64,000 nt of DNA from Hydrolagus affinis (lineage: Eukaryota), in NCBI GenBank assembly GCA_012026655.1, contig JAAILG010000165.1:62001-126000 (forward strand), written 5' to 3'. The notes beneath the pieces are model-generated. The model saw only the letters and a program-made list of their open reading frames with translations, did no database searches and had not been told where the DNA came from. Shown one piece after another: positions 3,001 through 9,000 of this stretch. The position numbers and the translations under genes were made by a program. The first letter of the stretch is position 1; every line of letters starts with the position of its first letter.

Positions 3001-6000
3001 GAAAATGTGACCAAGGGATAACATTGCCCCACATCAGATGCCAAAGCCACTCAATATCCAACATTTTGTTTGTAATGCATCCTCTACAATTCAACAGTTT
3101 TTATACTGCTCACTCACTAACACTCTTGTTTCATATTAATAAAACTGAAGCACCATTATATAACTAAAGTACCACACAGGTGGCTTTATAACAGATGAGG
3201 CCTAATTAAAAAGTCAACTCATGCCAATTTTATTTGAACCCCCGTGGTTAATTTTTTTACACTGGTTCTGTTGTTAAACAAAAGCCATTGAAAACAGTTT
3301 AGCTGTTTAGTAGAACGACAACAAATTTTTACATTTAGTAGAATGCTGAATTACAAGTTTTTTTTAATAATAGGAATAAAAGATTATTGCTCGTTTCTCC
3401 AAATGTTACAACTTGGAAGTTATGGCAAAATATGTTGTTGTTTAGTGGTTATAAACACCAATGACTGAATAAGTTTAGTGGTTATAAACACCAATGACTA
3501 TAGCAGAGGCGATTTATGCCACTAGCAGGGCATAAAGGTCGGTTAGCTTAAAGGGTTGGGGTAATGCAAGTCGGGTCATAAAGTGCTTACAGAAACTTAC
3601 TTCGTCCCAAAATGCAAGAAGAGACGATGCAGATGAGGTAGAAACAAAGTCCTTTGAGTAACAAATATGAGAAAAATACACTTAGCATGCCCCCTTTTCA
3701 AGTTCAAAAACGTACAAACCAGGATACTCTTTCCAAGTTTCTCTGTGTAGAATTTAGGTTTCCACTGCTTTAAAAGTAGTTAACTTGCTGTAAGTTTTTG
3801 AAAAGTTATAAATGCAACAGGCAGAATCAGACTATATCTGCTTTATGGAAGAGTGTTTGCACTCTGTGTACTTCTGCACAGATATGAACTGTTTTATGTC
3901 TCACACCAAATTAATTTGGCATGTGTTGCATTTCACAATTACTCTGCCATTTGGTTACTATTTAAAAAATTACACAGATACGCTATAAAAATAACACAGG
4001 TTAAATGCTCTTAGGTTTGATTTTGCCACTAACTCTTTAATAAGCACTTACTTTAAATCCCAAATCATGTGGAATTGGAGAAGTGTTAAAGTAGTCAAAT
4101 ATAGAGTCTTGAAAATCTGGAAGCTTGAGACCTTTTGAAGAAAAAGAAAAAATTAAAACATGCTTTTTTTAATAAAAGAGCCATACTTATTTACAGATAA
4201 ATGTAAAGCAATCCAGGTCTGGTAAGTATAACACCTAGTAACAATATGACACACTGTATAAATTACTAACCTTGCTCAGTTCTGACTCTGCTTTCTTCCA
4301 AGTCTTTCTTTAAAGTTTGTATCTCTTCAACAAATTGTTGATTTCTACGATCTGAGTCCCTCAATTTACTGTAAATATATTTTCAAGAACATGAGTAGAA
4401 TACAGGACGCATGCGGATTTAACAGTTAAACAATAGAGTTTATATTTGTTTCGTGCTTTTCACATCGGGAGAATATCTCAAAGCACTTGAAAAGGCTGGC
4501 TGGGCACTTAAGCAGGAGGTGGGAAGCTGAAGAGTTGTGGAGAAGAAAGATGACTGAAAGTGCATTCAAAGAAGTACGACTTGTTCTTGTAAATAGCCAC
4601 ATAAAACCTTGAAATTTTAACAATCAATATTTTAAAAATATTACATTCCTGCCAATATTGCCTGGAGAACCCTGATAATATCCTTTGAGATTTCCTCAGA
4701 TCCACTGCCATACATTACATTACTGATGATAAAAAGATGCATTATAGATCCAGGATCAAGATAGTAAAACCCCCATACCTCTCCAAAGCCATGTTTGTAG
4801 CTTTCACTCTACCCAGCTCTTCCTGAATTAACTGCTTGGCACGCATTTCTGTTTCAAGGGCTGACTGCAGCTCTAGCCTGGCTGACATATCGAGCTTTGC
4901 ACTACGTCGCACCTTCCACAGGGGGTCCTGGGAGTAAAGCAAAAAGGAAATGTCAGCAAATAATCATGTAAATTTCAAGGAATGCATATTTACTGCTTAC
5001 TTGGGAGTCTCACCAACAAAACCTCCTTGATTTCTCAAATAATTACAGTGAATCTGAACATCCTTTATTTTTTTTAATTGACATTTGAAAAATACTGAAA
5101 CAATAATCACTGATTGGGAACAATGGGGCAGGCTTGGGAGAGATAGCAACCGTAAGAATTAAAATCAAGGACAATTTAGAAGATTAAATCCTTGAAACCA
5201 CCTCTTAGTAATAATCAACTCCGATCTTAATTTTACTCTTGTATCTTCGAGTCCAAGAGTTTCCCATCTAAACCCTCTAAAATGTTGTCAGGATTCAATG
5301 ATTAAACAAAGGTAAAATATATATTTTAAACAGGATAAAAGGATCCTAAAAGGATCTAGAACAAGACATTTTTCCTTTTTTTTGTTAGTCCATGACCAGC
5401 GCTGCATAAACAGAGCAACCATACCATATTTTCCTTAACTCATCAAAAACAATTAGTTTCCTTATGCTTCTCTGTAGAAATACGACCTTTGTATTGCAGA
5501 ATGTAAATTAAACACAAAATATAAAGCAATGGCTGCATCAATTACCCTTCAATGCCACAGCTGAAAAATTATATGCTTCTAGATTTGAAAATTGTCCATT
5601 TAGCAAAACCAGACCTTTGCATTAATTACACCATTAGCATTGCATCTGGTTAATGTTGAGGGTTGAGGATATCCAGAGGTTTATTCAGGGTTGTTTTATT
5701 GGAGAATTAGGAAGATCAGGGAAAAATGTGAAATTAAATTAAATAAAACTTCAAAAATAGGACACAGGAAAAAAAATGGGATAGTAAAAAAAATCCCCAG
5801 GTAAAGTATTTTAACATTTAATTAGAGTTTATAATCTAGATTTTAGCCTTTAAGATTATTAGTATAAGTACTCGTGATACCCTTGCAATGGATTAGCTCT
5901 AATATTGCAGTAATCGTGCTAGATGAGCCAACAATAAGCAAAACTGCTTGACTCAGAGAAATGGGAGTTTCAGCAACATCTGTAGTTCCAATAGCTCCTC

Positions 6001-9000
6001 TGGATTTTGCTTTACAAAGCAAAGACTGAGGTAGTAATTGATCTTTACATATCTATTTATTGTTAGTTTTTGTGAATCAATTAACATAATCGGTTATGAT
6101 TACTCTTTAAAAAAAAGTATATCTTTCTTGGAATAACAACAACTAAATTGACATCTGTACAGTGCCTTTCACGTCGGGAGGACATCCCAAGGCGCTGAAA
6201 TAAATAAACGTAAATATTTATCCATCAAAACATTTTTTAAGATGCTGTATGAAGAATTGCAAATTTCTGCTTGAAAGTAACAGAAGTATATTTATTTAAC
6301 CTGCGCCTTGGGACTTCCTCCCGACATGATCGGTGCTCTATAAATATAATTTTGTTGTTCGCAGTGATAACATGTGATTTGGGATTTAAAGTATGTCTTA
6401 CCAGAGTTCTTGAACCGAGACTGGAATTTCGTAGAGATTCCAGTTCTTCTGTCATCTTTGATGCCAGAGCCTGCAAATATCCTCTAGCATCCTTCTCATC
6501 ACTTACCCTAACAGAATAAAAGAATGAATTAACCCTGAATGTTCCTTAATTACATTATCAACAAAAAATATTAAATTATTACATGCAAGCCTCTTCAGTT
6601 TAAACCTTACACACATAAAAGGTTCTGATCCATAAATATCTACTTATTATTCCAGTAGTGTATAAGCTAATGGTACAAATTACAAAAGACTTTGTTTAAG
6701 CATCAAGTATTATTCATTATCCCCAGAAGCAGATTTGCGTAGAAGACACATCAAAAGTTACCGCACTTTTAGATATGATCGATAATTCGAACATCAATGC
6801 TATTTCTGAATATTACCAGAAATGTACACAGAGGTTTGATAGTATTGCGAGTTAAGAACCTCTATTCTAATAAGCACTAGTACAAACCACTGTATGATCT
6901 CTGCAATTTGAGCTTCCCAGTGGGCCACTGATTCCTTCCTGGCTGCAAGGTCCTGAAGCTCATCTTCCAGTCGCCTGTTCTGTGTGGTGAGTTTGTCCAC
7001 AAATGAACACATCTTTAAAAATAAATGTTAGAACAAAAAAATTAAAGAGTTTAAAAACATTTGAATTGCATTTTTCAGGGCATTTTAAACCCAAATTTGC
7101 AGTATTTTGTAACAGTCGATAGAAAATTAAAATCATAACCTATCACCTGGTAAGGCGTGTATAATTACATAGTGGATTTTCAACTCTATGGAGACCTACA
7201 CCTCACAACAGGAAGCCACTTTGTTGGAAGCAGCTAAAAGGAGTTGTGGTAATTGATCTCTAAAGAGAAATTGTCCAGCAGTCAAGACCTTCCCGGGTGC
7301 AAGAAATCTTAGCTGGGAAGAGTTAGTCATGGTCTGGTATAAGTCATGGTCAAAAGTGGCTTAAGTTAAACAAACAGAATTCAAGACGACATGGGAGGGG
7401 AGAGAAGAGGGCGACAGAATTAAGGTTGAGAATTATGCACTGTGATTAAAATACAAATGTATTAGTGCCTTACTCTATCGTTCTCGGCTGAAAACTTCTT
7501 GTTCTCTTCGATGAACATGTTTTTCTCACATTCGTACTTCTTTTTCAGCTCGCTCAGAGTTTCTTCCATTTCGTTTTGCCTATACACAAAAAGGTCGACA
7601 TATTCAAATTTCTTATCACATTACATAACATCAATGGTGCACTTCCATTACACATAATTTGGAGCTTTTCTGGTACAATGCACTGGTACTGTGCATTATT
7701 TTGTTGAAAATCGATATGTGCTGGGATTCAAAATGAAGATGCATCTCATTTAGGCCAAACGCTCCACAACAGACCAGGCAAAGACAAATCAGTCCGCTCA
7801 CTGATCCAGTTTGTTATTTTCATTTTCAATAATGATCAGATCATAACATTACATTAATAGAGCTATTAATATTATTAACACACATCAATATTATCCAATT
7901 GTTTCCCAAACAAGTAAATGTACTTCGTAATGCAACTTACTTTATATTGCAGTTTGCAATAAAATTTTATAAAATCTGACCAAGAATTGTAGTGGAAATG
8001 AGTCAGTTAAAAAAAATTCACAAAGTAATCAACCAGGAATATAGACTTTTATAATACTAGGTTGCTTTTCCAGTGGATTTTTAGAATATTCAAGTATGAA
8101 CAAAATATTATAGTACTGTAATTAGATTACATTGAGCAAAGTTTCTGAATGGTGAACCCGTTCTGAACTTATCAACGTTATAAACTCAGTTTCAAATGGC
8201 TGGAAAATTAAAATGAACAGCAATATTTTATAGATTCTTTCTTGCACCATCCTTGAACTCTGTAATAGTAGTCCAAAATATTATGAAAATGAAATTGAAT
8301 TTTCCTTGAAATTCCTAGTTTGCTACAGTTTCATCTCTATAAAACTTTAAATAGTTATATTCTCCTTTCCCTCATCTCATTGGAGCAAGCAACACATTTG
8401 ATTAAGATACCGTCCGAGGAACATTACTTATGACAAACTTTTATTAACTGAGAAATCAATTTGCAAAAAGCATTTACCTGTCTCTCTTGGCTTTCTCCAA
8501 TTTGTCTTTCAGCATCATGACATCTTTCTGCAGAGCTAAGTGTTGGGCGTCTGAATCATGCAGCTCCTTCCGAAGGTTCTTAATTTCTGTGCAGTGAACA
8601 GATTCACACCTCACAAGTTCCTCTTCATAGAAAACTATTTTCTTCTCCAGTTCAGATTTTATCTTCGACAGTTCCTGCTGATGCAGTAAGATAGAGCCAC
8701 TTGTTCGGCCTCCTTGCTTTAGCTAAAAATACAAAGGGGGGTAGGGTGGGGAGGAGGAGAAATAAAATATTCATCAGCAGATGTTAGATGACCAGGATCA
8801 CTGCAATCGCATTTGTTTGCATCTTGTGAATGATTCTGGGTATTAGAGAAAATAGTTAGAAGAAAGACAACAACAACAACTTAAACTTATAAAGCGCCTT
8901 TCACGTCGGGAGGACGTCCCAAGGCGCTGCACAGGAGGCGTGACCCGAGCTGGGAGGCGAGTGTTCGGGAAGGGGTGAAACACGTAGGGGAGGTCGAAAA

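What the first reader, a model, noticed from the sequence alone, without database searches (positions are those of the whole stretch)
4041..6400. Long-range complementarity pairing the exon-18 and exon-21 splice-donor regions
Seen: 4049-4067 (tactttaaatcccaaatca) is the exact reverse complement of 6375-6393. The match extends with one mismatch and one bulge to 4041 and 6400. In the pre-mRNA one arm is the first ~27 nt of intron 18, overlapping its donor GUAAGA. The other arm is the last 16 coding nt of exon 21 plus its donor GUAAGU. Neither arm looks like a repeat, and one is protein-coding. Inference: a duplex spanning 2.3 kb could hide the exon-21 donor from U1 and loop out exons 19-20, acting as an RNA-structure splicing switch at the entrance to the MRCK variable region.
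Basis: partly seen in the sequence, partly recalled or inferred. Interest (0 to 1): 0.75.

Follow-up and report, generated by a model that had tools for sequence, protein, structure and literature searches.

The report
Donor-to-donor RNA pairing in chimaera MRCKβ
In a chimaera (ratfish) kinase gene, the start of one intron is an exact reverse match to the end of an exon 2.3 kb later; the RNA is predicted to pair and briefly hide that exon's splice signal, which would likely tune a neighbouring optional exon, but a harmless DNA-copying accident is not ruled out.

Summary
The match is real. A 19-nt exact inverted pair, unique in the genome, joins the start of CDC42BPB (MRCKβ) intron 18 with the end and donor of exon 21. 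The predicted duplex is −34 to −41 kcal/mol and extends to cover both donors. Point-mutation chance is unlikely (0 in 150 simulated windows). However, this genome carries about three isolated inverted copies per Mb and as many direct ones, so a templated DNA copy is a real rival.

Hints of selection:
- A teleost ortholog shares a 10-nt word inside the intronic arm.
- Mammal-like read-through peptides match the arm's register.
- A close relative's three changes keep pairing.

The proposed exon 19–20 switch is unsupported. That skip frameshifts. The relative's RNA shows ordinary 18-19-20-21 splicing and no intron-18 retention, and none of 179 orthologous isoforms lacks exon 19. A conserved, variably included 51-nt cassette follows exon 21.

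Best reading: a likely selected duplex that delays use of the exon-21 donor and tunes that cassette, possibly an ADAR substrate like GRIA2 R/G. No function is shown. The scan noted similar donor-covering duplexes in two arthropod genes.

The parts
6402..6507 (-). CDC42BPB exon 18 (106 nt, ends in phase 0); its last 7 nt are predicted to pair with intron 21
6371..6408 (-). Upstream arm: exon 18 -7..-1 plus intron 18 +1..+31; exact core +9..+27 = 6375-6393; +22..+31 is the 10-nt word shared with a teleost ortholog
6303..6359 (.). Fragment of a very high-copy retroposon-like repeat, 16 nt from the core arm (the L2/SINE label is recalled, not from a call)
   Evidence: D2, I7; depth 1e5-1e6
4779..4927 (-). 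Exon 19 (149 nt); C-terminal part of the KIM region and start of the DMPK coil
4271..4368 (-). Exon 20 (98 nt)
4052..4131 (-). Exon 21 (80 nt, ends in phase 0); ends in HDLGFK in all 47 chondrichthyan isoform sequences seen
4031..4071 (-). Downstream arm: exon 21 -20..-1 plus intron 21 +1..+21; exact core -16..+3 = 4049-4067, covering the donor
4068..4068 (-). Adenosine of the His codon (exon 21 -17), predicted opposite a C at the end of the 19-bp helix; candidate ADAR site (His to Arg), untested
   Evidence: sauropsid orthologs have Arg here
3601..3651 (-). 51-nt in-frame cassette exon after exon 21; conserved from sharks to bats; included in one RNA run of a relative (4 junction reads), not in the other (0)
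1..81 (-). Start of exon 22 (continues beyond the window)

Best explanation
The first 31 bases of CDC42BPB intron 18 are complementary to the end and donor of exon 21, and the nascent RNA likely folds into a selected duplex that is predicted to hide the exon-21 donor until intron 18 is cut out, which would tune inclusion of the 51-nt cassette exon that follows. Shown: the complementarity, its position on both donors, normal inclusion of exons 19-21 in a relative, and variable inclusion of the cassette. Inferred: the strong core starts at intron 18 +9, just outside the U1 footprint (-3..+8, recalled). U1 can therefore still take the exon-18 donor by opening only the weak outer helix, while the exon-21 donor (-16..+3) stays buried. 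Removal of intron 18 releases the arm. Intron 21 then commits late, after the exon-22 acceptor 4 kb on has been made, which would favour skipping the cassette unless a tissue factor intervenes. The same helix might be an ADAR substrate (A opposite C at exon 21 -17; AAA at the donor).
For: Unique exact 19-mer. -33.4 kcal/mol at the exon-21 donor versus -23.5 for the next-best site among 6382 windows; best of 231 donor pairs, z about -4.9; survives folding of the whole span. The pairing is reciprocal: coding exon 18 pairs with intron 21 and coding exon 21 with intron 18, which one copying event cannot write. A teleost MRCK beta locus shares a 10-nt word inside the arm; chance 29 of 5213 donor-like sites. 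Read-through peptides of intron 18 have Leu-[Asn/Lys/Glu] at codons 5-6, the chimaera register, in 9 of 33 beta versus 0 of 56 alpha sequences; background 1.6%. A close relative differs at 3 edge positions, giving two G-U pairs and a change at the existing mismatch, with the 18-bp core showing no listed change. The cassette is conserved and variably included. Precedent: the GRIA2 R/G duplex covers a donor upstream of alternative exons (PMC3553983).
Against: No splicing effect was seen: ordinary junctions, no intron-18 retention. The relative is only about 2% diverged and its energy change is unremarkable (12% of random triples do as well); no compensatory double change was seen. Isolated inverted and direct copies are equally common in this genome (4 and 4 per 1.4 Mb). 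The paralog MRCK alpha has no such pairing. Sauropsid-like and several teleost-like read-through peptides do not fit, and mammal-like codons 7-8 do not fit an extended helix; these peptides give degenerate codons, are unnamed, share ancestry, and the wider motif was chosen after seeing them. The teleost arm does not pair specially with chimaera exon 21 (39th percentile), and teleost exon 21 DNA was not obtained. Conserved complementary regions are depleted on active splice sites in human (PMC8052449). Intron 18 may be spliced before exon 21 is transcribed.
Confidence: 0.4

Rival explanations
1. A neutral templated copy: a replication or repair template switch wrote the reverse complement of the exon-21 end into intron 18 just behind the donor, perhaps perfecting a weak pre-existing match. 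The RNA can pair, but nothing depends on it.
For: Genome-unique isolated inverted pairs of 19-29 nt within 0.5-3.2 kb occur at about 3 per Mb (3 of 3 checked were unique genome-wide). Direct ones, which cannot pair, are as frequent. One background copy sits inside a SINE. The arm lies 16 nt from a retroposon fragment. TAAG is shared at the junction as possible microhomology. Template switches generating inverted repeats are documented (PMC7954356). No splicing phenotype was seen.
Against: Both arms sitting on donors is rare (my rough estimate 1e-3 per copy). The exon 18/intron 21 helix is in the other direction. The teleost 10-mer and the mammal-like register suggest the arm sequence is old. 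Documented short-range switches act over tens to hundreds of nucleotides, not 2.3 kb.
Confidence: 0.33
2. The duplex is selected mainly as an editing-complementary sequence: ADAR recodes the His codon at exon 21 -17 to Arg and/or the terminal Lys codon, also altering donor strength.
For: A.C mismatch at the end of a 19-bp helix. The teleost-shared word is exactly the part facing this loop. Turtles and crocodilians encode Arg at the His position and bony vertebrates Arg at the Lys position. GRIA2 R/G precedent.
Against: No T>C row at 4068 or 4052-4054 among the 40 rows shown at exon depth about 11-21 (79 rows hidden, so inconclusive). The C. milii cDNA-type entry has unedited HDLGFK. CDC42BPB is absent from the human recoding supplements searched (no positive control run).
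Confidence: 0.1
3. A loop-out switch: the helix brings the exon-18 donor next to intron 21 and causes in-frame skipping of exons 19-21 (109 aa, part of the KIM and the DMPK coil), or exon-21 skipping coupled to nonsense-mediated decay.
For: 327 nt keeps the frame. The geometry leaves donor 18 more open than donor 21. The KIM is human MRCKB aa 797-893 (PMC12519202) and the DMPK coil is aa 871-931 of the C. milii protein, so the product would be functionally distinct. NMD products would be scarce in polyA RNA.
Against: Exons 19-21 are not depleted relative to exon 18; 14, 16 and 19 canonical junction reads and no listed 18-cassette or 20-cassette joint (joints to exon 22 could not be seen). 0 of 179 isoforms lack exon 19.
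Confidence: 0.1
4. Pure coincidence of point mutations in AT-rich sequence, picked out of a very large scan; any conserved part of the arm is a protein-binding motif (UAAA-type, recalled) rather than a pairing site.
For: About 250,000 windows were scanned. The conserved traces are only 5-10 nt.
Against: 0 of 150 Markov windows have a 19-nt match within 5 kb, and the match extends on both sides.
Confidence: 0.07

Closest known systems
GRIA2 (GluA2) R/G-site duplex upstream of the flip/flop exons (Balik et al., PMC3553983; abstract and passages read)
   Same: An exon end and its donor are paired with an intronic complementary sequence, directly upstream of an alternatively spliced exon; candidate editable A near the donor.
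   Different: Here the partner is upstream, 2.3 kb and three exons away, and itself overlaps another donor; no editing or conservation of structure is shown.
Conserved long-range pairings (PCCRs) and exon loop-outs in human pre-mRNA (Kalmykova et al. 2021, PMC8052449; passages and 5 supplement files)
   Same: Length, energy (their most stable class, below -30) and distance (under 10 kb); near splice sites.
   Different: PCCRs are intronic with at most 10 nt of exon and are depleted on active splice sites; this pair uses 16-20 coding nt and two active donors, and the looped exons are not suppressed.
Short template-switch / templated insertions (Walker et al. 2021, PMC7954356; passages)
   Same: Short, unique, reverse-complement copy of nearby DNA forming a perfect inverted repeat; similar isolated copies occur across this genome.
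   Different: Their model covers tens to hundreds of nucleotides; here 2.3 kb, both arms on donors, with reciprocal exon-intron pairing.

Membership tests
Conserved long-range pre-mRNA pairing (PCCR) | At least 10 nt, dG at most -15 kcal/mol, within 10 kb in one gene | tested here: met
   19-nt core, -25.6 core and -34 to -41 overall (ViennaRNA), 2307 nt apart
Conserved long-range pre-mRNA pairing (PCCR) | Both arms intronic, at most 10 nt into exons | tested here: not met
   Downstream arm covers 16-20 coding nt
Conserved long-range pre-mRNA pairing (PCCR) | Arms conserved across vertebrates, with compensatory changes | tested here: inconclusive
   Close relative: core intact, two G-U changes; one teleost shares 10 nt; peptide hints mixed; no ortholog with both arms obtained
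Conserved long-range pre-mRNA pairing (PCCR) | Splicing changes on disruption and is rescued by compensation | not testable with these tools
   Needs minigenes or antisense oligonucleotides
Exon loop-out switch | A skipped isoform of the looped exons exists | tested here: not met
   Canonical joints only in 2 RNA runs at low depth, joints to exon 22 not visible; 0 of 179 isoforms lack exon 19
ADAR editing site with ECS (GRIA2 R/G type) | Exon end and donor paired with an intronic complementary sequence, with an A in or beside a mismatch | tested here: met
   Predicted pair table, A 4068 opposite C
ADAR editing site with ECS (GRIA2 R/G type) | A-to-G differences in RNA versus DNA | tested here: inconclusive
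   None among the 40 rows shown, 79 hidden; one C. milii cDNA-type entry unedited
Templated inverted insertion | Short unique inverted copy of nearby DNA with unrelated flanks | tested here: met
Templated inverted insertion | Absent at the orthologous place in outgroups | tested here: inconclusive
   Present in the close relative; partial similarity in a teleost; no shark or Callorhinchus intron DNA available
Inverted pair of interspersed repeats or transposon ends | Arms occur in many copies or bound a mobile element | tested here: not met
   2 copies genome-wide; three conserved exons lie between the arms

The most novel reading that the evidence does not exclude
An ancient donor-to-donor RNA clamp in vertebrate CDC42BPB. 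The 5' end of intron 18 reaches over three exons to lock the exon-21 donor, so that removal of one intron licenses a later one, sets inclusion of a conserved cassette and presents an A.C site for His-to-Arg recoding, a change that turtles and crocodilians have hard-wired.
Probability: 0.15. Interest if true: 0.78.

Novelty: new member of a known kind. Interest (0 to 1): 0.45.

Why it matters
If selected, it is a compact, mutable example of RNA structure setting the order of intron removal, with a partner upstream of the exon it controls and overlapping a second active donor. Catalogues that exclude exons would miss this layout. It would also give a mechanism for a cassette conserved from sharks to mammals, next to the regulatory coiled coil of MRCK beta. 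If neutral, it is a useful warning: this genome makes about three short unique inverted copies per Mb, so strong predicted duplexes need conservation evidence.

Tried and rejected
Repeat or transposon origin of the arms: rejected. Exon 19-20 skipping: rejected on frame and RNA. Pairing in the paralog MRCK alpha: none (-7.3 kcal/mol on the narrow arms). A competing pairing of the same arm with the exon-19 donor looked strong on 60-nt windows (-36.4) but fell to -22.4, rank 7, on the narrow scan; not relied on. No RNA holder was listed for the stretch; the RNA laid came from the same study as the relative's DNA. Run X12 did not cover either arm. Ortholog DNA: the metagenome scan gave only one vertebrate-type beta locus among 80, lacking exon 21; genome and viral contig scans gave none; an antisense-frame protein search gave none; no chondrichthyan read-through peptide was found. 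Look-alike windows in the scan: none. Literature: 0 papers hold CDC42BPB + alternative splicing + RNA structure; searches showed nothing on this region. The one editing mention is an intronic B1 element in mouse (PMC10530068, passages). Supplements searched without a hit: PMC8052449 (its main catalogue is a browser track), PMC12626424, PMC8897444 (file 4 unreadable), PMC8096273 (one short file). Those of PMC10573301 could not be read and may bear on novelty. The stricter background filter also dropped the window's own pair, because one of its 14-mers has a third copy, and dropped the C6 29-mer; the background rate is therefore a lower bound.
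Full report
Observation. Window 4049-4067 is the exact reverse complement of 6375-6393. The gene is CDC42BPB (MRCK beta) on the minus strand. One exon is 96% identical to Callorhinchus milii and 81-85% to sharks and rays, so the genome is a holocephalan. tblastn places exons 18-21 at 6402-6507, 4779-4927, 4271-4368 and 4052-4131, confirmed by RNA joints. In the pre-mRNA, intron 18 +9..+27 pairs with exon 21 -16 to intron 21 +3. Outer helices pair exon 18 -7 to intron 18 +7 with intron 21 +5..+21, and two more pairs close a 2x2 loop at exon 21 -17/-18. 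The 19-mer has only these two copies in 1.11 Gb.

Strength. The duplex scores -34 kcal/mol on 39-nt arms and -41 on 60-nt donor regions. That is the best of 231 donor pairs in the gene (others mean -17.8, sd 4.8; some early donors were auto-picked). The arm's best site along the whole window is the exon-21 donor (-33.4; next -23.5, 6382 windows). In a fold of the whole 2.4-kb span the core pairs have probability 0.89-1.0, except 0.73 at the last. These are protein-free equilibrium predictions.

Chance. A Markov-3 null gave 0 matches of 19 nt or more within 5 kb in 150 windows. The real genome is richer. With a looser filter, 800 kb held 3 isolated inverted matches of 19-29 nt, all 3 unique genome-wide, one inside a SINE. 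With a stricter filter, 1.4 Mb held 4 inverted and 4 direct matches (it also dropped the window's own pair). Direct copies cannot pair, so this class most likely comes from templated DNA copying (inference; PMC7954356 passages). About one window in five should hold such a pair. What needs explaining is that both arms fall on donors (my rough estimate 1e-3 per pair) and that the pairing is reciprocal between two coding ends and two introns.

Conservation. A close relative (organism B, about 2% diverged) differs at 4049, 6394 and 6395 among the 40 rows shown (79 hidden). These turn A-U and G-C into G-U and change the existing mismatch; no change is listed in the 18-bp core. The cost of 1.7 kcal/mol is matched by 12% of random triples, so this is weak. 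One of 80 metagenome loci is a teleost-type MRCK beta (L009). Its intron 18 shares a 10-nt word with chimaera +22..+31 at a similar offset; 29 of 5213 donor-like sites do so by chance. Gene calls that read through into intron 18 give degenerate views of other orthologs. 9 of 33 beta-type peptides have Leu-[Asn/Lys/Glu] at codons 5-6, as the chimaera does, versus 0 of 56 alpha-type and 1.6% of donor-like sites. A looser, post hoc motif gives 17 of 33 versus 4 of 56. These sequences are unnamed, my lineage labels rest on exon-18 residues, and they amount to perhaps two independent lineages. Sauropsid-like and several teleost-like ones do not fit, and mammal-like codons 7-8 do not fit a longer helix. 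The paralog MRCK alpha has the same exon layout but no pairing. No ortholog with both arms was obtained, so covariation is untested.

Splicing. Two polyA runs of organism B show joints 18-19 (3 and 11 reads), 19-20 (4 and 12), 20-21 (7 and 12) and 21-cassette (4 and 0). Depth over the unique part of intron 18 is zero, and exons 19-21 are not depleted against exon 18. Exon 22 lay outside the laid stretch, so 18-22 and 20-22 joints could not appear, and depth was only about 8-20. 0 of 179 full-length orthologous isoforms lack exon 19. In an earlier count 10 of 108 lacked exon 21; the five visible carry unrelated sequence there, which looks like gene-model error. The variable element is a 51-nt cassette at 3601-3651, present in 31 of 108 isoforms from sharks, turtles and bats.

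Mechanism. The geometry is asymmetric. The core (-25.6) begins just beyond the U1 footprint of the exon-18 donor (footprint recalled) but runs straight through the exon-21 donor. I infer a transient clamp: intron 18 can be spliced, intron 21 cannot commit until the arm leaves with the lariat, and the delay shifts the choice between cassette and exon 22. This resembles GRIA2 R/G, where a conserved duplex covers a donor upstream of flip/flop and editing correlates with exon choice (PMC3553983, abstract and passages); that lead came from finding e1-7832592. Here an A of a His codon faces a C at the helix end, the teleost-shared word faces that loop, and turtles and crocodilians encode Arg there. 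Editing was neither seen nor excluded, and CDC42BPB was not found in the human recoding supplements searched. Against the model, conserved complementary regions avoid active splice sites in human (PMC8052449 passages), and intron 18 may leave before exon 21 is made.

Verdict. Observation confirmed; interpretation partly supported. I put about 0.6 on a selected pairing of some kind (0.40 timing of the cassette, 0.10 editing, 0.10 rare skipping), 0.33 on a neutral templated copy and 0.07 on coincidence. It works like known donor-occluding pre-mRNA duplexes. It fails the intronic-only criterion of PCCRs and, on present data, the skipped-isoform criterion of loop-outs. No paper on it was found in searches. 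PMC13665469, PMC3983107 and PMC7352703 (passages) say nothing on this region. Interest 0.45; an ortholog alignment would settle most of the doubt.

Noticed in passing
G000:C5, C6, C7, C13 (66 block coordinates; C6:58562/59084, C7:44183/45519, C7:15365/16102): Short (19-29 nt), genome-unique inverted and direct copies within 0.3-4.6 kb, about 3 per Mb of each kind, one inside a SINE: likely templated insertions, far above a Markov expectation.
   Followed up: partly
window 58892-58911 and 59557-59576: Isolated exact 20-nt direct copy in intron or upstream DNA, of the same class.
   Followed up: no
P0003 versus P0333, residue 935 (exon 20/21 junction; window 4131): The C. milii genome-based protein has Asp where a second UniRef entry and all other chondrichthyans have Gly, the only difference in 1703 aa: polymorphism, assembly error or A-to-I editing.
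   Followed up: no
L005 about 6190-6240: The paralog MRCK alpha carries a cassette-like exon homologous to the 51-nt beta cassette at the same position, so the cassette likely predates the duplication.
   Followed up: no
P0004, P0335-P0342: Carpet sharks have an extra 8-residue segment after the cassette exon in annotated isoforms.
   Followed up: no
window 1826-1929 and 1967-2070: 104-nt inverted repeat (85%, 37 nt apart) of two retroposon copies between the cassette and exon 22; could form a local hairpin.
   Followed up: no
window 1043-1663, - strand: 206-codon stop-free frame inside the intron before exon 22; no homology test done.
   Followed up: no
window 4760-4800, - strand: The intron-18 arm has a weaker alternative partner at the exon-19 donor (-22.4 kcal/mol, rank 7 in the window).
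   Followed up: partly
window 3440-3499: Exact 27-nt direct duplication, 33 nt apart, about 100 nt downstream of the cassette exon.
   Followed up: no
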